Source: a virus (lineage: Duplodnaviria; Heunggongvirae; Uroviricota; Caudoviricetes). From it: a stretch of 15,100 nucleotides of DNA. The stretch lies in IMG/VR virus record IMGVR_UViG_3300015174_000024; one strand, given 5' to 3'. Position 1 is the first letter of the stretch; the number at the start of each line of letters is the position of its first letter. Below the pieces are notes generated by a model. The model did not search any database. It saw nothing but the letters and a program-made list of their open reading frames with translations, and had not been told where the DNA came from. Shown one piece after another: positions 251 through 15,100 of the stretch. Both the position numbers and the translations under genes were made by a program.

Positions 251-281
251 AAACAACGTGGAACAAATAGACACAAGAAAT
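251..281. repeat. 10-bp-phased direct repeats AACAACgtgg / GAACAAAtag / CACAAGaaat, preceded by TGACTACACC x2 (212-233) and phased A-tracts (189-211)
   Basis: Read directly in the sequence. The same AACAACGTGGAACAA core recurs at 7715-7729 and a related phased array at 13790-13836. Confidence 0.6.
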
Positions 282-6341: not shown

Positions 6342-7499
6342 TTAATCGTCGTCCTGTGGCAGTTCCAGAATCTTGATCGCGTTCGAATCCACCACGCCAC
6401 CGCCTAAATATTTCTGCGTGAAAATTTTGATGAAGCCCGGCTCTGTGAGGTTGTCCGGTCTGGTGCGAACACCTGTTTCGTGATCAACAATGTAGTAACC
6501 GCGTTTGAAGTCACCCAGGGCAATAACGTTATCCGGCATAAACTCCAGATATTCGACCGGAAGGCCCAGTAACGTATCAGGATCACCCGCCTGTAAACGG
6601 TCGCGCCAGATGTAATCACCGTTCGCGTTCTTCACCTTCTGAAGTTTTGCCGCCGTCGTGGAGTTAACCACCCAGACCGCGTTTTTGCGGTATTTTTTAC
6701 GTAATGCAAATTTCAGGTCGATCAGCGGGTCCGCAGATGTCCACGCCAGAGATTCGGAAGGTTTAATTACCTGCAACGTACCAAAATCACGCTCTTTGTC
6801 GTTCTTCTCTGCACGGGGTACGGATAAAAAGCCTTTTGCTTTTTTGTCACCGTCGCCCACAACCAGATCGCTTTCTTCGGTTTCCGTGAAGTTGTCGCCA
6901 ATCTCGCCCGTCAGCCATGAAAGGATGTCCACATCGGAAAAATCCACGATTTCCTGCGTGGTGCGCGGGTACGCATAGACCGGATACAGCTTAATGCTCA
7001 CCTCGTTAATCTGCGGGGTGCTGGTCTGTTCGCGTGCCTTACCCTCTTCACCGTGGTTAACGGTCGCACCGCCAGCGGAAACAAGCTGCTTAAACTCGTT
7101 GCTGCTGATTTTCTTCACGGTACAGATGCGGCGCATGGTGGATTCATCCGTCAGCATTCGCATGATTTCGGTGTTCAGTTCGGGGATAACGGTATAACCA
7201 CCATCAGCGGGAACGCCTGTACTTAATGCGCGGGTTTCACCTGTCAGAATGTAGTGACGTAGTTCGGCTGGGTCAGTGGTCTGACTGCTTTTACCTGGCT
7301 TGCTGCGCTCTTCGTCTGCAATGGCTTCAAGGCGGGAAATGTCTTTATCGAGGGATTCAGCTTTAGCGCGTAATTCGTCAAATTTTGCGCCCTCAGCATC
7401 GTTAAGACTGCGGTTTTCTTTTTCCGCGTTCTCCAGCATGTCGCGCATCTGATTTTTAATGGCGGTTTTCTGCTGGCGTAATTCGATTATTCTCGGCAT
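6342..7499 (-). CDS. major capsid protein (HK97 fold) with N-terminal coiled-coil delta/scaffold domain
   Basis: 385 aa; charged coiled-coil N-terminal ~100 aa, then capsid-like body; followed by protease and portal. Confidence 0.9.
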   Translation of the reverse strand: MPRIIELRQQKTAIKNQMRDMLENAEKENRSLNDAEGAKFDELRAKAESLDKDISRLEAIADEERSKPGKSSQTTDPAELRHYILTGETRALSTGVPADGGYTVIPELNTEIMRMLTDESTMRRICTVKKISSNEFKQLVSAGGATVNHGEEGKAREQTSTPQINEVSIKLYPVYAYPRTTQEIVDFSDVDILSWLTGEIGDNFTETEESDLVVGDGDKKAKGFLSVPRAEKNDKERDFGTLQVIKPSESLAWTSADPLIDLKFALRKKYRKNAVWVVNSTTAAKLQKVKNANGDYIWRDRLQAGDPDTLLGLPVEYLEFMPDNVIALGDFKRGYYIVDHETGVRTRPDNLTEPGFIKIFTQKYLGGGVVDSNAIKILELPQDDD

Positions 7500-7536
7500 A
7501 AAAAAAGTCCTGGGGTTAAGTAAGGAACTCCAGGAC
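7500..7536 (-). promoter_or_regulatory. terminator-like stem-loop plus T7 run immediately upstream of the capsid start codon
   Basis: Minus strand: GTCCTGG - 16 nt loop - CCAGGAC - TTTTTTT - ATG. The 3' arm contains the only SD-like AGGA. Confidence 0.35.
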
Positions 7537-7713
7537 GCGGCAAAAACTCAACCGTTTTTCATAAGGAAATCAGCAATCGCACCGATCGTTTTCCCGCCTG
7601 GTAATGAATATTGGCGAGAACATTAACAGGCGGAAAAGTGGCCCCAGCGTCCTGGCACCACGGGCGAGAATAATCATGATTCAGTTCGGGTAAAATATGC
7701 CGATCCGCTCAGT

Positions 7714-7740
7714 GAACAACGTGGAACAACCACGAACAAA
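7714..7740. repeat. 10-bp-phased direct repeats GAACAACgtg / GAACAACcac / GAACAAAtaa, about 220 bp upstream of the capsid operon
   Basis: Read directly; shares the 15-mer AACAACGTGGAACAA with 252-266. Confidence 0.6.
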
Positions 7741-7754
7741 TAATTTACAAAACA

Positions 7755-7780
7755 TGACAAAAAGCCGGATTGCTCCGGCT
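7755..7780 (-). terminator. rho-independent terminator after the PerC-like gene
   Basis: Minus strand AGCCGGA-gcaa-TCCGGCT followed by TTTTTGT, 7 nt after the stop codon. Confidence 0.55.
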
Positions 7781-7786
7781 GTGTGA

Positions 7787-8059
7787 TTATCTGTCCTGGT
7801 AATTTCGCCATATTTCATTACCAGCACCATCCATACCCATTTCGGCATAAGTGCGATCGACCGCCTTTTTCAGGTCTCCGTAGTTATCCGGCGGCTCCGG
7901 TGGCCTCTGTGCCTTCCTGGAACATTCCAGCCGTCGCATCGTGATGTGATGCCGTTCCTTGTCTGTCTCCACCAGTTGCATGACTTCACCCCATCGCGCC
8001 GACGCTCTCCGGTAAAAGCCTTTCGCCTCCAGTTCTTCCGCTATGCGGTCATGTACCAT
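7787..8059 (-). CDS. PerC-family transcriptional regulator (Pch-like)
   Basis: About 90 aa; N-terminal AEELEAKGFYRRASARW resembles the PerC/Pch motif as I recall it. ATG 8059 has a GAGGGG SD; the ORF track starts at GTG 8068. Confidence 0.5.
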   Translation of the reverse strand: MVHDRIAEELEAKGFYRRASARWGEVMQLVETDKERHHITMRRLECSRKAQRPPEPPDNYGDLKKAVDRTYAEMGMDGAGNEIWRNYQDR

Positions 8060-8071
8060 CGTCCCCACCCC

Positions 8072-8482
8072 TCAGAACGGAATATCATCACCGTAAGGGT
8101 CATCGCCTCCCGCTGGTGGCTGATTACCCTGTGTGCCTGTGGTCTTGCGTCGGCTCCCACCAGGACGTGCCGCACGGGCACTGATTACGCTGTCTGCAAT
8201 AACCTGATAACCCTGCCGCGTTTCCCCGTTCTGTCCGGTCCACTGGCTGACCTGCATCGTGCCGGATACGCTGGCAACGTCGCCTTTTTGATGTTTAGCC
8301 AGGAAGTCGGCCTGCTTACCAAATGCGATGACCGATAGCCATAACGTCGCCTGTCCATCCTGTGCCTGGCTGCATGGCAGCGATACCGCCATACGCGCCA
8401 GCGTCATCGGTGTACCCTTGCTGGTCTGTTTTACCTGCGGGTCGTCCACCAGCCGCCCGTAAGCTGCTATCTGTGCTGTCAT
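8072..8482 (-). CDS. ssb: single-stranded DNA-binding protein
   Basis: 136 aa; OB-fold-like core (WLSVIAFGK), Gly/Pro-rich linker and the diagnostic acidic C-terminus ending DDIPF; ATGA overlap with the upstream gene. Confidence 0.8.
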   Translation of the reverse strand: MTAQIAAYGRLVDDPQVKQTSKGTPMTLARMAVSLPCSQAQDGQATLWLSVIAFGKQADFLAKHQKGDVASVSGTMQVSQWTGQNGETRQGYQVIADSVISARAARPGGSRRKTTGTQGNQPPAGGDDPYGDDIPF

Positions 8483-8757
8483 GATTCCACCTCTCCGGTT
8501 TTAACGTTGATGGTTGTTACCTGTTCCGCTTCGGCAATCTCCCGCTCTGTCAGCGTGGCAAAATTTGCCGCCGTCGTGGTCATGAATGCGCTTATCAGTT
8601 CGGGATGTGCTTTCGCGTATCCTTCCCCCGCGTGGCGGTCTATCGTTCTGATTGCCACCTTTAAAGCGTGCTCTGTCATGTCTAACGCGCGATATTTCGG
8701 TTCTGTTCTGTCTCTGCGTTTTTTGAGTGATTTATTAAATTTCCCTGAAGTGTGCAT
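8479..8757 (-). CDS. hypothetical protein, 92 aa
   Basis: ATG 8757 with a GAGGGGG SD about 12 nt upstream; first gene after the iteron region; coupled to ssb. Confidence 0.45.
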   Translation of the reverse strand: MHTSGKFNKSLKKRRDRTEPKYRALDMTEHALKVAIRTIDRHAGEGYAKAHPELISAFMTTTAANFATLTEREIAEAEQVTTINVKTGEVES

Positions 8758-8805
8758 ATTTATTTTTACCCCCTCGTTTAAAAAGTTTTGAGTTGTGCCT
8801 CCCCT

Positions 8806-9032
8806 TGTCTACCTTATCTACCTTAGTGGCCCTCATACCAGTAATGGCGCGGCTTTCAGCGGGGTAGAGTGCTTTTATCCACTATCTACCCCGTGTCTAC
8901 CTCCCTGTCTGATTCAGGTAAAATCAGGTAGAGAGGGTAGATAGTGGGTAGACAGTAAAAAAAGGTTATCTACCTAACTTAATGCACTGAATTAAATGTA
9001 TTTTTCTTTACTCAGGTAGACAGGGTAGACAG
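8806..9032. repeat. iteron array (about 11 copies of GGTAGAnA / TnTCTACC in both orientations) with an AT-rich stretch; candidate replication origin
   Basis: Octamers at 8806, 8815, 8863 (partial), 8884, 8894, 8927, 8937, 8948, 8967, 9015, 9024; AT-rich segment 8975-9012; lies immediately downstream of the primase gene. Confidence 0.55.
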
Positions 9033-9045
9033 CAATTACAAAAAA

Positions 9046-10800
9046 TTATAAAAACGCGTCGCACTCGTCTGTTGTTATTGCGTTAGTCTGCGTTACTCCC
9101 TTAACTTTCCGCGTAATATATTCATGTCCGTAAACTTTCGCGGCTGGCTTCATAGCCTTGCCAAAGTCATTTACGTTTAGCGGTTTGCTCCTGCCTGCGT
9201 ACGCCATAAACGCCAGATAGACGCGGTAAAGGCTGTTTCTGGTCGTGTACTTCACTGAATCGCCACCGCCGCCCATCATCAGGCCGCGTGCTTCCTCCAG
9301 AAAATTCAGGAACTGGCAAAACTCAATAACCGGATCCGTCTGTTGCTTTATTGCCAGAGCTTCATCACCGTCACGCTGTTCCAGTAGTAAAGCCCGTGCC
9401 TTCTCAGGGTCGGTAAAGTTCGCCAGCAATCGGCGGATAATGACAGGGATTTCAGCCGCGATCTTTTCCGGTAGCTCCCTGTCTTTTTCGGCCTCACTGA
9501 CGATATTGTCGAAACGGAAAATCACGCGACGACGTGCCACACCTCCGGCCCGTTCGGTGAATATCATCGGGTTATTGTTGGTCGCCAGCACCACCGCCCT
9601 GATTACCGCCGTGAAACGCTTTTCGTATTTCGGGTTAATTTCCACGGGGTCACCGCCCGTGATTTTCTTGATGCCCGTTCCTTCGCCTGTATATTTCGGC
9701 TGGTCAGCCAGGACGATAAGACGACTCCCGACAACCTGCGCACGTCCACCAGCATCATCAAGCGATGTCATTTCAGCGCTTACCGTGTTCTGTTTCCCTG
9801 CCAGAAGGCTGGCTATGTGTGTGAATGTACTTTTACCGCTCCCGCCGTCTCCGGTGGCCTCAATAAACATCTGCCAGTCGTACCGGTTCGCCATAATCAT
9901 GTACAGCGCGGCACATATACGCATCATCTTGCGCGGGTCTTTTCCGGCTGCGTGCTCAAGCCATTTATGAAAGTTTGGCGCGTTATCGCGGATGTTCTCC
10001 CCTGGTGCTGGTGGCGTGTACTCAATGCCGTTGTGCGTGGTGATCCAGTTCTCCGGCGTGTGCGGGGAAAATTCCCCCGTTTTCAGGTCAAGCGCACCAT
10101 TGGCGAACGGCAACAAATCGCCGGACGGCTCGCCCATTGGTTCGGCAATAACTTTTAACGCTTCCACGGCGTTATTGATTACGCGCTTGCTGAAAGTGGC
10201 CCTGTGCTCTGAATAGATCGCCACCATTTCGCGGCTAAGTTCCATTGTGCTGACCGGACACCATACCCCGCCGCGCCATACGTGAACGATTTCACTTTCA
10301 GGATGTACGCAAACGCCATCAAAGCGATCGGCAAGCAGCTGCGCGCGCTCACTGTCCGCCATCTGCGAAAGTTGCGCCTTTTGCTTTACCGGAAGCTCAA
10401 TGACCAGACCATCAGAAAGATTCTGGCGCTCACGGGCCAGATATTCGCGCCAGTTCTCCACCTTCTGACCGTGCATACCATCAGGGTAAAAATTTGCATC
10501 CTGTACGCCTGCCGCCGCCAGCTTCTGACCAATCCCCTTTATCATTACTGGCGCAAGATATCCGGCCCTGAATATGCGCACGGATTCTCTGCCTTCCGGC
10601 ACAATTTGCAGCTTATCCAGTTCGGATAACTGCTGCTCCCCAAGCCACACAGGAGGCTCATTATCTCCGGCCATACGCGCGTCATGTTCCTGCCATTGTT
10701 TTGCGTGTGACCAGGCATCACTACCCGCAAAAATAATGACTTCTGTTTCTTTGTGTTTTATGCCGCGTGACTGCTGTTTTACGTTCGGTGCCAGTTTCAT
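9046..10800 (-). CDS. primase/helicase replication protein (P4-alpha-like, Pri-Rep)
   Basis: 584 aa; central Walker A GDGGSGKST and a D5-like NTPase region, with an N-terminal primase-like domain; ATGA overlap with the upstream small ORF. Confidence 0.85.
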   Translation of the reverse strand: MKLAPNVKQQSRGIKHKETEVIIFAGSDAWSHAKQWQEHDARMAGDNEPPVWLGEQQLSELDKLQIVPEGRESVRIFRAGYLAPVMIKGIGQKLAAAGVQDANFYPDGMHGQKVENWREYLARERQNLSDGLVIELPVKQKAQLSQMADSERAQLLADRFDGVCVHPESEIVHVWRGGVWCPVSTMELSREMVAIYSEHRATFSKRVINNAVEALKVIAEPMGEPSGDLLPFANGALDLKTGEFSPHTPENWITTHNGIEYTPPAPGENIRDNAPNFHKWLEHAAGKDPRKMMRICAALYMIMANRYDWQMFIEATGDGGSGKSTFTHIASLLAGKQNTVSAEMTSLDDAGGRAQVVGSRLIVLADQPKYTGEGTGIKKITGGDPVEINPKYEKRFTAVIRAVVLATNNNPMIFTERAGGVARRRVIFRFDNIVSEAEKDRELPEKIAAEIPVIIRRLLANFTDPEKARALLLEQRDGDEALAIKQQTDPVIEFCQFLNFLEEARGLMMGGGGDSVKYTTRNSLYRVYLAFMAYAGRSKPLNVNDFGKAMKPAAKVYGHEYITRKVKGVTQTNAITTDECDAFL

Positions 10801-11096
10801 TTTTTACCCCTGAATCCGTTAATCATGGTTTTCAGCTTCTGGATGTTTGCCCGTGCCCTGGCGTTGCTGGTGGACACGTTATGCGGCGCGGTCTGTACCA
10901 GAGAAAAATCACGCCGGAACTGATAAACAGGCATCACGCAATCATATTCGTAACCTTCACGGCGGTAGGTTACGCGCCGTTCTTCCACGCCCTTAATCAT
11001 TACCGTGCCGCCGTACTGGTCGCGGTAAATATCGCCGCGCGTAAATTTAGGGTGAGTGTTGCCACTGGCAGTTAAGCCAGAATATTTAAGTTTCAT
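10797..11096 (-). CDS. hypothetical protein, 99 aa
   Basis: GGAGA SD 9 nt upstream of the ATG; translationally coupled to primase. Confidence 0.5.
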   Translation of the reverse strand: MKLKYSGLTASGNTHPKFTRGDIYRDQYGGTVMIKGVEERRVTYRREGYEYDCVMPVYQFRRDFSLVQTAPHNVSTSNARARANIQKLKTMINGFRGKK

Positions 11097-11919: not shown

Positions 11920-12136
11920 GGTGCACCTCCTGCACATCAGCCATGATAATTTTTCCGGCCTTATCCAGTGCCTGATCGGCTTTTAGCTGCACAAATGCTA
12001 AATAATGGAAGATGCATTCTGATTCTCTGGCTGCGTGTTTATGCGCCCTGTCAGCAATAACAGAAATATCAATAAGCGCGTGCATCAGCGTAGTGAGCGC
12101 GGCGGCGGCTGCGTCCGGTGTGGTTTTATTGCACAT
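11912..12136 (-). CDS. hypothetical protein, about 74 aa
   Basis: Start placed at ATG 12136 (MCNKTT...) with an AGGAGG SD; the ORF-track start at 12178 is further upstream. Confidence 0.5.
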   Translation of the reverse strand: MCNKTTPDAAAAALTTLMHALIDISVIADRAHKHAARESECIFHYLAFVQLKADQALDKAGKIIMADVQEVHHA

Positions 12137-12326
12137 GGCACACCTCCTGACGAATACGGGCGGCGAATACAGCAACACAACCGGACGGGCAACGGCTACG
12201 CGCTTCGCGTTCCGTCCAGGCGGTTACGTGGATGATTTGAGATTCTCCGGCACTTAGTGCCAGAAAACGCCACACAAAGGCAGTTTGTGTGTGCGCCAGA
12301 CGTGGGGTATGCTGTGTTCCAGCCAT
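12126..12326 (-). CDS. hypothetical protein, 66 aa, first gene of the leftward operon
   Basis: ATG 12326 preceded by AGGAG 8 nt upstream; it is the in-frame C-terminal part of an implausible 378-aa ORF-track call. Confidence 0.45.
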   Translation of the reverse strand: MAGTQHTPRLAHTQTAFVWRFLALSAGESQIIHVTAWTEREARSRCPSGCVAVFAARIRQEVCHVQ

Positions 12327-12435
12327 AATCGTTACTCCTGTTAACGGTTTGGTTAGACGCCCCGCTACTGCCGCAAACAGTTCGGGGCGTTGTCGTTTAC
12401 ATCCTCTTACTGAGGTGTGATTTAAATTAAATTCA

Positions 12436-12491
12436 ACTGAATCACAGGTCAAGTGTTTTTTGTGATTCTTTTTTGTGTATACTGAATCACA
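12436..12491. promoter_or_regulatory. divergent promoter/operator region: GAATCACA at 12439-12446 and 12484-12491, inverted copy TGTGATTC at 12461-12468
   Basis: Read directly. Inverted pair has a 14-bp spacer and overlaps a minus-strand TTGACC -35-like hexamer (revcomp of 12450-12455); the third copy abuts a plus-strand TATACT -10-like hexamer (12478-12483). Confidence 0.5.
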
Positions 12492-12513
12492 TCTTTTGTT
12501 TAGGAGAATGCAC

Positions 12514-12819
12514 ATGGCAAAAAACACTATCAACGACAAATCAAAACAGATTTCAATTCGTATCCCACATGATGCTTTTGATGGCATGGAATCCGTAAAA
12601 CTGGACGGCGAAAGCAACGCCGGATTCATAGTAACCGCCATGCGCGGGGAGATCGCCCGCCGCCAGGCAGAAGGAAGCAGTGAAAATCCTCTGATTTCTT
12701 CTCTCGATGCATTGGCGCAAGTGGAAAAAATTGGTATTAAAGCTACGGAAGAACTCGGGCAACTTATCGCCATCGCTCGTGAAGAACTACAGCGCCGCAA
12801 GGCCAAAGAATCAGAATAA
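12514..12819 (+). CDS. ribbon-helix-helix-like DNA-binding protein (candidate island repressor)
   Basis: AGGAG at 12502-12506, ATG at 12514; N-terminus KQISIRIPHDAFDGME...GFIVTAMRGEIARRQ fits a beta-strand/helix/helix pattern; divergently placed from the replication operon. Confidence 0.5.
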   Translation: MAKNTINDKSKQISIRIPHDAFDGMESVKLDGESNAGFIVTAMRGEIARRQAEGSSENPLISSLDALAQVEKIGIKATEELGQLIAIAREELQRRKAKESE

Positions 12820-12876
12820 TCACTATCAGCGCCGTGGTGTGAGGTATTACGGCGCATTGCTATGCAGGACAACACA

Positions 12877-13050
12877 ATGACCGATAAAGAATTGACCAAA
12901 ACATTATCACCGGCACGGAAAAGACGGCGCAGAAAGATAGAGCATGAATCAGAAAGATTCGCGCCATGTGCTTTTGCCCTTGAGCAATTCCTTAAAGAAT
13001 ACAGGGAAAAGCGCTCATTGCAGGTATGGCAACGAACTGAACCAGACTGA
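12877..13050 (+). CDS. small basic hypothetical protein (about 58 aa)
   Basis: Weak SD; Arg/Lys-rich (RKRRRRK); follows the RHH gene on the same strand. An alternative ATG lies at 12862. Confidence 0.3.
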   Translation: MTDKELTKTLSPARKRRRRKIEHESERFAPCAFALEQFLKEYREKRSLQVWQRTEPD

Positions 13051-13144
13051 TTGCATTGCCCACCAGCCTGATAGCGGCTATCATCCCCGTGCTTATGTTT
13101 GGGATCACACACACAAACGGCGCAGCGGGTTATCTGTTCAGAAA

Positions 13145-13174
13145 GGCGGCTACATTTCGGGGCCGCTTTTTTTA
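13145..13174 (+). terminator. rho-independent terminator ending the short rightward transcription unit
   Basis: GGCGGC ... GCCGC stem followed by TTTTTTT on the plus strand. Confidence 0.45.
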
Positions 13175-13319
13175 TGCCTGAAAAACCCCAATTTTGTGGT
13201 TTTCCAGTCTCACCAGGGCGAACGAATCCCCGCCCACGTTCTGGCGTATATTCAATCTTCATGGTTATAGCTCTGTGTTCAGATGATTGATGTGTGGCGG
13301 CTGCGTGCCGCCAGCGTGA

Positions 13320-13508
13320 TTAATGAACTGCCTTGCAGCTATCCTTCCAGGCCAGAACCTCGGATAAAGACCAGCCAACGGAACGACCGCTAAGTTTACG
13401 ACGTGATGGGAATTGTCCGGCCTTTTCCAGGCGGTAGCGGCATGAGCGGCTAAGGCCTGTTAGCTTTTCGCATTCTTTTTCACGTATAAACCGATCAGTG
13501 CTTAACAC
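13320..13508 (-). CDS. alpA: AlpA-family (Xis/Vis-like) regulator/excisionase
   Basis: 62 aa; LTGLSRS..YRL..G.FP....L....VGW...EV..W pattern; GTG start with AAGGGGG SD; located next to int. Confidence 0.8.
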   Translation of the reverse strand: MLSTDRFIREKECEKLTGLSRSCRYRLEKAGQFPSRRKLSGRSVGWSLSEVLAWKDSCKAVH

Positions 13509-13789: not shown

Positions 13790-13836
13790 CTTGTTCGTAG
13801 TTGTTCCGCATTGTTGCTCATTGTTGCACGTTGTAT
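13790..13836. repeat. five 10-bp-phased repeats (plus strand TTGTTcgtag/TTGTTccgca/TTGTTgctca/TTGTTgcacg/TTGTAtctgt; minus strand GAACAA-type) just 3' of int
   Basis: Read directly; related to the GAACAA arrays at 251-281 and 7714-7740 but in opposite orientation. Confidence 0.6.
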
Positions 13837-13882
13837 CTGTTCGCATATCCAGCATGCGCATACTGAAAAAACACGAAAAAAA

Positions 13883-15100
13883 TTATTTTCTTCTGGCTAC
13901 TGGTAGCGTGGTTACGTTTTCATGTGTTCCCGCCAGTATCCCTAACCGCTCCGTCCACATATCCAGCGCATTGCGTTTAGCATCCAGATAACGGGAATGA
14001 TTATAAACTCGCTGCATTCCTGGCATCTGGTGGCCTGTAAGCTGCTCCACGACATGCGGATCAACGCCTAAATCGTTCAGCATGGTTGTAAAGGTGCGCC
14101 GGATGTCATGCAGTGACCAGTGAGGATGATTAAGCCTCCTGTGCGCTAATCTTCCATACTGCGATACGCTGGCCTCCTGTTTCACTTCCCCCAGCAATAA
14201 GCCCGTGTGCCTGTTCTGCTCCACCAGCTGCGTGACGAACGGCAGGATCGCTTCCGGTATGGGCCGGAATATTGCGACCTTCGTTTTGCTGTGCTCCTTC
14301 GGAACGGTCCATAGCATTTCCGTAAAATCCCACTCCCCGATCTCCGATAACCTCAGTTCTACCGTTCTGGCTCCGAAGACAATCAGGAGGCGGATTAACG
14401 CGACGTAGTAAGGGGAGAATATTTTTTTGTCCAGTGCCTGCAATAATTCGCCAAGTTCTTTGTTACTTAAGACACGTTCGCTTATATCCGGTTTTTTCCC
14501 AACGTCCGCCACGTTCAGATCGTCCAGAACGTTGCTGATTGCATAGCGCCGCCTACGGCAGAACTTAAGCGCCTGTTTGCACGCCTGTAGCACGAATCCG
14601 GCAGTAACAGGCGTTCGCTTTGCCACCTGGTCAAAACAGGCCAGCCAGTGCCGTAGCTCGCATTTATCCAGCGGCATAGCACCAATCTGCTGTATTACGT
14701 GATTATTAAGTCGCCTTTTCAGGGCGATATAATCCACGCGGTTTTCCTTTACGTAATACTCAAGCCAGTAGGTGAGCGCATCGCCAACCGTTACGGGCTT
14801 TAACGCTTCCTGTACGGTGTAATTCATCTCATGACGTGGATTTTTCCCCTCAGCCAGCCATGTGCGACACTGTGCGGCTTTTTCCCTGGCTGCTTTCAGG
14901 CTCAGATCAGGATAACTTCCCAGCTTAATGCGTTCGGGTCGTGTCTCCCTTCCCGTTCCGGCCCTGTATGTGAAATACCAGGTCAATTTCCCTGATGTTA
15001 AATATTTCACGCTCAGGTTTCCGCCATCACTATAAAACGTGTTTTTCTCCGCTGGCTTACCATGAAGTTTCCTTAGCAAGGTATCGCTCAGTTTGTTCAT
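13883..15100 (-). CDS. int: tyrosine integrase, P4-like with N-terminal arm-binding domain
   Basis: 405 aa; HDIRRTF, LTGHQ and C-terminal VYNHSRY catalytic-Tyr motifs; the ATG is the last 3 nt of the window. Confidence 0.9.
   Translation of the reverse strand: MNKLSDTLLRKLHGKPAEKNTFYSDGGNLSVKYLTSGKLTWYFTYRAGTGRETRPERIKLGSYPDLSLKAAREKAAQCRTWLAEGKNPRHEMNYTVQEALKPVTVGDALTYWLEYYVKENRVDYIALKRRLNNHVIQQIGAMPLDKCELRHWLACFDQVAKRTPVTAGFVLQACKQALKFCRRRRYAISNVLDDLNVADVGKKPDISERVLSNKELGELLQALDKKIFSPYYVALIRLLIVFGARTVELRLSEIGEWDFTEMLWTVPKEHSKTKVAIFRPIPEAILPFVTQLVEQNRHTGLLLGEVKQEASVSQYGRLAHRRLNHPHWSLHDIRRTFTTMLNDLGVDPHVVEQLTGHQMPGMQRVYNHSRYLDAKRNALDMWTERLGILAGTHENVTTLPVARRK

What the first reader, a model, noticed from the sequence alone, without database searches (positions are those of the whole stretch)
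7787..8059. PerC/Pch-like transcriptional activator carried by the satellite
The 90-aa product has the AEELEAKG..RRA..RW N-terminal signature I associate with PerC-family activators, which are known in EPEC/EHEC as prophage-borne regulators of the LEE pathogenicity island. Here it is the last gene before the capsid operon, followed by a strong terminator. It could be the island's own late activator, a host-virulence regulator moved by a satellite, or both.
Basis: partly seen in the sequence, partly recalled or inferred. Interest (0 to 1): 0.5.

Follow-up and report, generated by a model that had tools for sequence, protein, structure and literature searches.

The report
PchE-type PerC gene on a cf-PICI
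This is a real but already annotated PerC-family gene, an ortholog of E. coli O157 PchE, carried by a capsid-forming phage satellite; comparison with related satellites suggests it is an optional small regulator, not the switch that turns on the satellite's capsid genes.

Summary
Window 7787-8059 (minus strand) encodes a 90-aa protein that matches Pfam PerC over its full length (E 4e-43). It is the last gene of the replication operon. A GC-rich GNRA-loop terminator follows it, then a 260-nt leader and the capsid operon. The element is an E. coli capsid-forming PICI inserted in tqsA.

The gene is not new. RefSeq names it "PerC family transcriptional regulator". It is 87% identical to PchE of O157 Sakai Sp7/OI-51, the prototype cf-PICI, and about 20% of complete E. 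coli genomes carry a homolog.

The late-activator reading is disfavoured:
- PerC is present in all 38 closest cf-PICI loci, in 4 of 13 of the next lineage, and in 0 of 20 of a third.
- Loci with and without PerC have identical promoter-proximal leader sequence.
- PerC sits in a variable slot, alongside ProQ/FinO-like and phrog_1957 genes.
- The predicted fold is a four-helix TPR-like hairpin with no HTH.

The LEE-activator reading is also disfavoured. Papers in the held library report that PchE-type proteins do not activate LEE1, and identical copies occur in strains labelled UPEC or from extraintestinal sources.

Best reading: an accessory, protein-binding transcription modulator. Low novelty.

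The parts
7787..8059 (-). perC/pchE-type gene, 90 aa (ATG 8059; alternative in-frame GTG at 8068)
   Evidence: ORF. Pfam PerC E 4.1e-43, full length. PGAP product WP_000233313.1 'PerC family transcriptional regulator'. 87% identical to Sakai PchE. phrog_994 E 4.5e-46.
7758..7780 (-). Intrinsic terminator ending the early (alpA-primase-ssb-perC) operon: AGCCGGA-GCAA-TCCGGCT followed by TTTTT
   Evidence: Flagged by the scan. dG -13.2, z -4.5. Conserved in all lineage-A loci with a GCAA or GAAA loop. Duplicated around ECs_1589 in Sakai.
8072..8482 (-). ssb, the gene immediately upstream; its stop codon is 12 nt before the perC ATG, so the two probably share an operon
   Evidence: Pfam SSB E 4e-17 and TIGR00621. 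Sequence.
7714..7750 (-). Start of the capsid-operon leader: the motif TTGTAAATTATTTGT, whose TGTAAAT(T/A) core is kept in most cf-PICI lineages, then three TTGTTC repeats spaced 10 bp apart
   Evidence: The same array type also occurs at window 251-276 and 13791-13826 (9 hits against 1.7 expected, 0 of 200 shuffles reach 9).
7667..7694 (-). Candidate sigma-70 promoter of the capsid operon (TTTACC-N16-TATTCT); the assignment is inferred, not mapped
   Evidence: Read from the sequence. It lies at the same position as TTGCTC-N16-TATAAT in the EcCICFT073 leader and shares the 12-mer AATCATGATTAT with it. The consensus scan did not flag it.
7589..7661 (-). Two adjacent conserved hairpins of the leader: hairpin 1 at 7661-7638 with a GACG loop kept in nearly all lineages, and hairpin 2 at 7637-7589
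   Evidence: 90.7% of cells paired against 34-46% when partners are slid; 11 pairs with compensatory changes; 0 of 500 shuffles reach the observed values. The hairpin-1 motif is found upstream of the capsid gene in most of the cf-PICI loci fetched. It is absent from HK022 and from the classical PICIs fetched.
7500..7536 (-). Hairpin that contains the capsid Shine-Dalgarno AGGA, followed by seven T and then the capsid ATG (7499); terminator-like
   Evidence: dG -14.1, z -4.45. Conserved in lineage A; lineages B and C have a different hairpin abutting the start codon, without the T-run. That the B/C hairpin holds the SD is my reading.
6342..7499 (-). Major capsid gene (HK97 type), first gene of the packaging operon
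   Evidence: Pfam Phage_capsid E 1.5e-61; TIGR01554 E 2.7e-87.

Best explanation
The ORF is the PchE-type ('group 3') PerC-family gene of an E. coli capsid-forming PICI.

Shown here:
- It is a bona fide PerC-family member.
- It is the terminal gene of the rightward early operon (alpA ... primase-ssb-perC) and starts 12 nt after ssb.
- An intrinsic terminator separates it from the capsid operon, which has its own conserved leader.
- It occupies a variable slot that in related islands holds PerC, a ProQ/FinO-like gene, a phrog_1957 gene, combinations of these, or (in some lineage-C loci) neither PerC nor phrog_1957.

Inferred:
- The protein is a small all-helical TPR-like hairpin. It likely acts through protein-protein contacts with transcription or nucleoid factors rather than as a sequence-specific DNA-binding activator.
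- The comparison is with Pch, which counter-silences H-NS/StpA/Hha complexes, and with ANR proteins, which bind AraC-type regulators and H-NS.
- Its role is that of an accessory modulator. It retunes host gene expression, as PchE does for curli/csgD and flhDC, and may adjust island or helper transcription.
- It is dispensable for switching on the capsid operon.
For: - Family membership.
- Orthology to PchE in the prototype cf-PICI Sp7/OI-51, with identical synteny.
- Facultative distribution. A PerC HMM hit lies within 3 kb upstream of the capsid gene in 38/38 lineage-A loci, 4/13 lineage-B loci and 0/20 lineage-C loci.
- B loci with PerC (L114, L117, L118) and without it (L111-113, L115, L119) share an identical 74-nt promoter-proximal leader segment.
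- Variable slot content.
- L028/L086 keeps the leader and packaging genes but has an ssb-perC deletion fusion.
- EcCICFT073 has the same ssb-perC-terminator arrangement in front of an unrelated late-module leader.
- Weak ANR similarity: NF033650, E 8e-4.
- Literature. Pch lacks homology to DNA-binding proteins and acts by relieving H-NS/StpA/Hha silencing (PMC4764244). pchE is expressed basally, SOS induction lowers it more than 6-fold, it represses csgD and raises flhDC (PMC6265319, PMC7369912). A PICI PerC homolog represses LEE1 (PMC11773190).
Against: - No experiment exists on this protein.
- PerC is present in every lineage-A locus sampled, even where int, alpA and primase modules are swapped. 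That could reflect a lineage-specific requirement rather than tight physical linkage.
- Lineage A alone has the terminator-like hairpin plus T-run directly before the capsid ATG.
- Published ChIP work reports Pch at many DNA sites, so some DNA association is possible.
- The PchE phenotypes come largely from plasmid overexpression.
- IMG/VR loci carry no host labels and many lineage-A loci are near-identical, so the counts are not independent events.
Confidence: 0.6

Rival explanations
1. PerC is the island's late activator or antiterminator. It is made last from the early operon, acts on the leader just downstream, and lets RNA polymerase start at the capsid promoter or read through the hairpin plus T-run before the capsid ATG. 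The layout would be analogous to lambda Q / PR' / tR'.
For: - Position: last early gene, then terminator, leader with repeats, terminator-like hairpin, capsid.
- 38/38 linkage with the lineage-A capsid module across mosaic early regions.
- The same position relative to the morphogenesis module in EcCICFT073.
- Only lineage A has the T-run after the pre-capsid hairpin.
Against: - Absent from 9/13 lineage-B and 20/20 lineage-C islands, which keep the hairpin-1/hairpin-2 leader and the capsid operon.
- Identical promoter-proximal sequence with and without PerC.
- No HTH, zinc finger or Q-like fold.
- The CFT073 leader shares only a 12-mer with this one, although the aligned part of its perC gene is about 90% identical.
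- pchE is reported as basally expressed and lowered by SOS induction (PMC6265319).
Confidence: 0.17
2. PerC targets the helper phage. It binds a helper regulator to interfere with, or to boost, helper late gene expression (for example tail genes). This would be analogous to SaPI Pti proteins or P4 Delta.
For: - The TPR-like fold suits protein binding.
- The family is almost absent from phage genome records: 1 hit in 50,697. It is common in PICIs, both classical and capsid-forming (PMC6092414).
- cf-PICIs need only helper tails (bioRxiv 10.1101/2022.09.08.507074).
Against: - There is no direct evidence.
- cf-PICIs use many different helpers, and PerC is lacking in most non-lineage-A cf-PICIs.
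- PchE has host phenotypes without phage induction (PMC6265319).
Confidence: 0.13
3. [quoted passage not shown]
For: Same Pfam family. Historical annotation of the family.
Against: - 87% identical to PchE, but only 31-45% identical to plasmid-borne family members.
- PchE and the EcCIEDL933/EcCICFT073 homologs are reported not to activate LEE1 (Porter 2005, as cited in PMC11773190 and PMC6265319).
- EcCIMP1_025 represses LEE1 (PMC11773190).
- Identical copies occur in strains labelled UPEC or from extraintestinal sources, which I infer lack LEE.
Confidence: 0.03

Closest known systems
PchE (ECs_1588) of E. coli O157:H7 Sakai prophage-like element Sp7 / EDL933 OI-51 (CP-933C) = cf-PICI EcCIEDL933
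   Same: 87% identical over 89 of 90 aa, same length, same position (ssb-pchE-terminator-leader-capsid) in the same kind of island. This is the ortholog.
   Different: The island sits at a different site (tqsA here; between roxA and phoQ in Sakai). Sakai has an extra 74-aa gene (ECs_1589, phrog_1957) between duplicated terminators, which this window lacks. There are 12 substitutions, mostly in the C-terminal half.
EPEC PerC and EHEC PchA/B/C (group 1 PerC homologs)
   Same: Same Pfam family. They share the conserved N-terminal D..AE.LE..G.YRRA..RW core and the R36/R43/C46 and M74-G75 positions. Small size, carried on mobile elements.
   Different: Plasmid-borne family members are only about 31-45% identical; I did not align named EPEC PerC or PchA/B/C sequences directly. 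Group 1 proteins activate LEE1 by relieving H-NS/StpA/Hha silencing (PMC4764244); PchE-type proteins are reported not to. Group 1 genes lie on plasmid pEAF or lambdoid prophages, not in PICIs (from the literature and my own knowledge).
EcCIMP1_025, the PerC-like gene of the classical PICI EcCIMP1
   Same: A PerC-family gene carried by an E. coli PICI. Its authors also noted ANR-like similarity (PMC11773190).
   Different: About 40% identity to the EDL933 and CFT073 homologs, according to that paper. It silences LEE1-lux in Citrobacter rodentium. EcCIMP1 has no capsid operon.
ANR family (Aar, Rnr): small anti-activators that bind AraC-type regulators and H-NS
   Same: Weak profile similarity over the helical hairpin, residues 7-52 (NF033650, E 8e-4). 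Small all-helical proteins that work through protein-protein contacts. NCBI labels one PerC-family cluster (P0202) as ANR.
   Different: The score (19.2 bits) is below the family cutoff (32 bits). PerC proteins are longer and have an extra C-terminal helix.
Late-gene regulators placed at the end of early operons (lambda Q, P2 Ogr / P4 Delta)
   Same: Only the genomic layout: last early gene, then a terminator, a leader with a terminator-like hairpin, and the structural operon.
   Different: No sequence or fold similarity. Not universally linked to the operon it would control.

Membership tests
Pfam PerC (PF06069) | Full-length profile match above the gathering score | tested here: met
   146 bits against a cutoff of 22.6, E 4.1e-43, residues 1-89 matched to profile positions 1-89 of 90.
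Pfam PerC (PF06069) | Family-invariant residues (D4, A7, L10, R17-R18-A19, W23; near-invariant E8, E11, G14, R22, R36, R43, C46, M74, G75) | tested here: met
   All are present in the window protein in alignments of 32 and 87 family members.
Pfam PerC (PF06069) | Small (about 90 aa) all-helical protein | tested here: met
   90 aa. AF2 model pLDDT 83.7 with helices at 5-13, 16-29, 33-50 and 60-73.
LEE-activating PerC/PchABC (group 1) | Clusters by sequence with PerC/PchA-C rather than PchD/E | tested here: not met
   87% identical to PchE. 31-45% identical to plasmid-borne family members. PchE is classed as group 3 in PMC6265319.
LEE-activating PerC/PchABC (group 1) | Activates the LEE1/ler promoter | not testable with these tools
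   For the ortholog, papers report no activation (Porter 2005 and Iyoda 2004, as cited in PMC11773190 and PMC6265319).
ANR (AraC negative regulator) family, NF033650 | Profile match above the curated cutoff | tested here: not met
   19.2 bits against a cutoff of 32, E 8e-4, residues 7-52. Related fold region only.
Capsid-forming PICI (context of the gene) | int, alpA and primase-replicase together with its own capsid, protease, portal, connectors, HNH, TerS and TerL; no tail or lysis genes; about 15 kb | tested here: met
   Collinear with Sakai Sp7 (EcCIEDL933), with capsid, portal and terminase 98-99% identical. Criteria taken from bioRxiv 10.1101/2022.09.08.507074.
Capsid-forming PICI (context of the gene) | Induction and transfer by a helper phage | not testable with these tools
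   Shown experimentally only for EcCIEDL933 and a few other islands.
Dedicated late activator or antiterminator of a structural operon | Always accompanies the operon and leader it controls | tested here: not met
   PerC is present in 38/38, 4/13 and 0/20 loci of three capsid lineages that share the leader hairpins.
Dedicated late activator or antiterminator of a structural operon | Recognisable DNA-binding or RNAP-loading fold (HTH, zinc finger, Q-like) | tested here: not met

The most novel reading that the evidence does not exclude
PerC-family proteins may be, in origin, satellite (PICI) genes: TPR-like adaptors made at the end of the induced early operon. In lineage-A cf-PICIs they could help RNA polymerase or ribosomes pass the SD-sequestering, terminator-like hairpin in front of the capsid gene, or they could remodel nucleoid proteins on the leader. 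On this view the LEE regulators PerC and PchABC of EPEC/EHEC are exaptations of this satellite function.
Probability: 0.1. Interest if true: 0.6.

Novelty: already known. Interest (0 to 1): 0.25.

Why it matters
The gene adds little on its own. It is annotated, widespread (about 1,100 of 5,426 complete E. coli genomes), and its O157 ortholog has been studied.

What remains open is why E. coli PICIs so often carry a PerC homolog. No paper in the held library tests its role in the satellite life cycle. The comparative result here narrows the question: PerC is an optional cassette, not the core late switch.

That shifts attention to the conserved structured leader of the cf-PICI capsid operon and to the TTGTTC arrays shared with the island ends. 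These are the more promising leads on how cf-PICIs time capsid production.

Tried and rejected
1. TTGTTC arrays as PerC sites. The same 16-mers flank int and mark the far island end in this window, in Sakai and in CFT073. That pattern fits Int arm-type or AlpA/Vis-type sites. The arrays are also present in the leader of islands without PerC. Rejected as PerC sites; the binder is unresolved, because islands with unrelated int/alpA (L111-118) keep the leader array but lack the end arrays.

2. PICI AlpA as a Q-like antiterminator, by analogy with P. aeruginosa AlpA. That protein places its HTH at about residues 128-142 and needs a long N-terminal ring (PMC9371919). The island's AlpA is 62 aa. Not transferable.

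3. Leader hairpins as HK022 put-like RNA. There was no Rfam hit in the window at E<=1. The hairpin-1 motif is absent from HK022. An alignment good enough for a covariance model of hairpin 2 could not be made. Left untested.

4. H-NS silencing of the island as a rationale for a counter-silencer. The island is about 45-58% GC and the leader 46-47%, so it is not markedly AT-rich. No support.

5. Multi-repeat proteins hit by PerC (P0070, P0120, P0131) are low-complexity artefacts.

6. The one 100%-identical 'plasmid' hit (CP088587) carries pntB and mdtJI, so it is a chromosomal fragment.

7. No PADLOC defence matches for PerC or neighbouring small ORFs.

8. The genome-contig scan with a PerC profile returned only 6 loci, too few for a cross-genus context survey.

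Full report
**What is there**

The window is almost exactly one E. coli capsid-forming PICI (cf-PICI), read on its minus strand. It starts in the 5' fragment of tqsA and ends at the integrase start codon.

Gene order on the minus strand:
- int (13883-15100)
- alpA (13320-13508)
- small ORFs
- a DUF4222/RgdR-like gene (10797-11096)
- P4-type primase (9046-10800)
- a 92-aa ORF
- ssb (8072-8482)
- the ORF in question (7787-8059)
- major capsid (6342-7499), prohead protease, portal, two connector genes, HNH, TerS (P27 family), TerL, and a 93-aa ORF

An 1,101-bp stretch (window 7400-8500) is 100% identical in at least 25 complete E. coli genomes. In PCN033 the island interrupts tqsA.

The island is collinear with Sakai Sp7 / EDL933 OI-51. 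Capsid, portal and terminase are 98-99% identical. That element is the published prototype cf-PICI, EcCIEDL933 (bioRxiv 10.1101/2022.09.08.507074; PMC3378721).

**The observation**

The 90-aa product matches Pfam PerC end to end (E 4.1e-43) and carries every family-invariant residue.

It starts 12 nt after the ssb stop. A 7-bp GC-rich hairpin with a GNRA (GCAA) loop and a T-run follows it (dG -13.2, z -4.5).

The gene is on the minus strand.

**It is already known**

- PGAP names the product (WP_000233313.1) "PerC family transcriptional regulator".
- It is 87% identical to PchE (ECs_1588), which sits in the same position in Sp7.
- A blastn search with the gene finds homologs in 1,098 of 5,426 complete E. 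coli genomes, and every listed hit is annotated PerC.
- PerC homologs in E. coli PICIs are mentioned in PMC6092414 and studied in PMC11773190.

The family is small: 97 clusters at 50% identity among 1.84 billion representatives. Every named hit is from Enterobacterales. It is almost absent from deposited phage genomes, with 1 hit in 50,697 records. Plasmid copies are only 31-45% identical and lie in IS-rich virulence regions.

**Is it the island's late activator?**

I fetched 58 and then 80 IMG/VR loci that encode relatives of the capsid protein, the second set with whole-island flanks. I then searched the 3 kb upstream of each capsid gene with a PerC HMM.

| Capsid lineage (identity to window) | Loci with a PerC hit |
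|---|---|
| A (97-100%) | 38 of 38 (at least one is a truncated ssb-perC fusion, L086=L028) |
| B (73-75%) | 4 of 13 |
| C (68-71%) | 0 of 20 |

Lineage-B loci with PerC (L114, L117, L118) and without it (L111-113, L115, L119 and others) have the same 74-nt promoter-proximal leader segment.

The space between ssb and the leader is a variable slot. It holds PerC alone (this window) or PerC plus an ECs_1589-like 74-95-aa gene (phrog_1957). In other islands it holds that gene alone, or a ProQ/FinO-like 176-180-aa gene with or without the others.

In the classical PICI EcCICFT073 the same ssb-perC-terminator unit precedes a different morphogenesis module. That module's leader shares only the 12-mer AATCATGATTAT with this one.

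A factor that can be present or absent in front of the same leader, and that also sits in front of an unrelated leader, is unlikely to be the obligatory, sequence-specific late switch.

**What the leader shows**

The leader has its own conserved anatomy, independent of PerC:
- A TGTAAAT(T/A) motif lies 215-250 nt upstream of the capsid ATG in most lineages.
- In lineages A and B, three TTGTTC repeats follow at 10-bp spacing (7714-7739).
- Then come two adjacent hairpins, the first with a GACG loop kept in nearly all lineages.
- Last is a hairpin that contains the capsid Shine-Dalgarno sequence. In lineage A only, a run of 7-8 T follows it.

The hairpins are supported by covariation. 90.7% of cells pair, against 34-46% when partners are slid. 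Eleven pairs show compensatory changes. None of 500 shuffles reaches the observed values.

The TTGTTC arrays recur, sometimes as identical 16-mers, just after int and near the far island end in this window, in Sakai and in CFT073. That pattern points to Int arm-type or AlpA/Vis-type sites rather than PerC sites. Who binds them is unresolved. Islands with unrelated int/alpA keep the leader array but not the end arrays.

**What kind of protein is it?**

- There are no solved relatives by sequence.
- An AlphaFold2 model built from an 87-sequence alignment is confident (pLDDT 83.7) and has four helices.
- NCBIfam gives a sub-threshold ANR match over the same hairpin.

This agrees with the literature. 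Pch has no homology to DNA-binding proteins and activates only by relieving H-NS/StpA/Hha silencing (PMC4764244). ANR proteins act by binding AraC-type regulators and H-NS (PMC5570504).

For the ortholog PchE, the papers report:
- no LEE1 activation (Porter 2005 and Iyoda 2004, as cited in PMC11773190 and PMC6265319);
- basal expression that falls more than 6-fold on SOS induction;
- repression of csgD and curli;
- induction of flhDC when overexpressed (PMC6265319, PMC7369912).

The EcCIMP1 homolog represses LEE1 (PMC11773190).

**Conclusion**

Identity and context are certain.

The most likely function is an accessory, protein-binding modulator of transcription that the satellite carries in a variable slot (confidence about 0.6).

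The late-activator idea survives only as a lineage-A-specific possibility (about 0.17). In its favour, PerC is never missing there, and only lineage A has a terminator-like T-run before the capsid gene.

A helper-directed role is possible (about 0.13). LEE activation is very unlikely (about 0.03).

**Limits**

- No host labels are available for the IMG/VR loci.
- Many lineage-A loci are near-identical, so the counts are not independent events.
- Promoter positions are inferred.
- TPR-like matches to a short helical unit are generic.

Noticed in passing
window 7500-7750 (minus strand); L070-L149: The cf-PICI capsid operon has a conserved, structured 5' leader. It holds a TGTAAAT(T/A) motif, two adjacent hairpins (hairpin-1 loop GACG kept in nearly all lineages, stems covarying) and a hairpin holding the capsid SD. 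The hairpin-1 motif is found upstream of the capsid gene in most of the cf-PICI loci fetched. It is absent from HK022 and from the classical PICIs fetched. There is no Rfam match. This may be a regulatory RNA (antitermination or translational control).
   Followed up: partly
window 251-276, 7714-7739, 13791-13826 (also 13865-13880); L002 1303, 2688-2713, 8946-8971, 16541; L150 4101, 13946-13971, 15330: TTGTTC repeats spaced 10 bp apart, often as identical 16-mers. They occur near the island ends, in the int-alpA intergenic region and, in cf-PICIs only, in the capsid leader. In the window there are 9 hits against 1.7 expected. They look like Int arm-type or AlpA/Vis sites that the capsid leader also uses. 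The binding protein is unknown.
   Followed up: partly
L002 8670-8894 (ECs_1589); L053 2457-2717; L051 2811-3098; absent from the window: A second small gene family (phrog_1957, no Pfam match) lies directly upstream of the capsid leader in 13/13 lineage-B, 12/20 lineage-C and 17/38 lineage-A cf-PICIs. In Sakai it is bracketed by a duplicated copy of the perC terminator. It is more widespread in cf-PICIs than PerC. Function unknown.
   Followed up: partly
L003 5462-5998; L004 5462-6004; L113 8946-9488; L121 6590-7120: A ProQ/FinO-like gene of 176-180 aa (so named by PGAP at hits H79-H83) occupies the same slot between ssb and the late module. It sits either in front of PerC or in its place.
   Followed up: no
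window 8800-9035: Iterons of about 9-10 bp, (T/G)TCTACC(T/C), in both orientations around an AT-rich stretch (38-44% GC) just downstream of the primase gene. This is probably the island's replication origin.
   Followed up: partly
L150 7760-7800 (EcCICFT073, minus strand): The leader of the CFT073 morphogenesis module has a TATAAT box inside a palindrome (ATGATTATAATCAT). Next to it lies a LexA-box-like palindrome, CTGGATGAACATCCAG. This suggests SOS control of that late module, as in SaPIs. There is no TTGTTC array there.
   Followed up: no
L028 3036-3197 (= L086 3142-3303): One lineage-A island has a deletion that fuses the ssb N-terminus to the perC C-terminus. The leader and packaging genes are intact. 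It is a natural perC/ssb-null variant and could be tested for mobility.
   Followed up: no
L011 (CP088587.1, listed as a 32.5-kb plasmid): This record carries the whole island together with the chromosomal genes pntB and mdtJI. It is probably a chromosomal fragment, or an excised or mis-assembled segment, rather than a plasmid.
   Followed up: no
window 12126-13262 region compared with L001: Icd-like cell-division-inhibitor genes (one marked as a pseudogene in PCN033) and an oppositely oriented YlcI/YnfO gene lie between alpA and the small early ORFs. The window differs from PCN033 by an indel of about 113 bp somewhere between perC and alpA.
   Followed up: no
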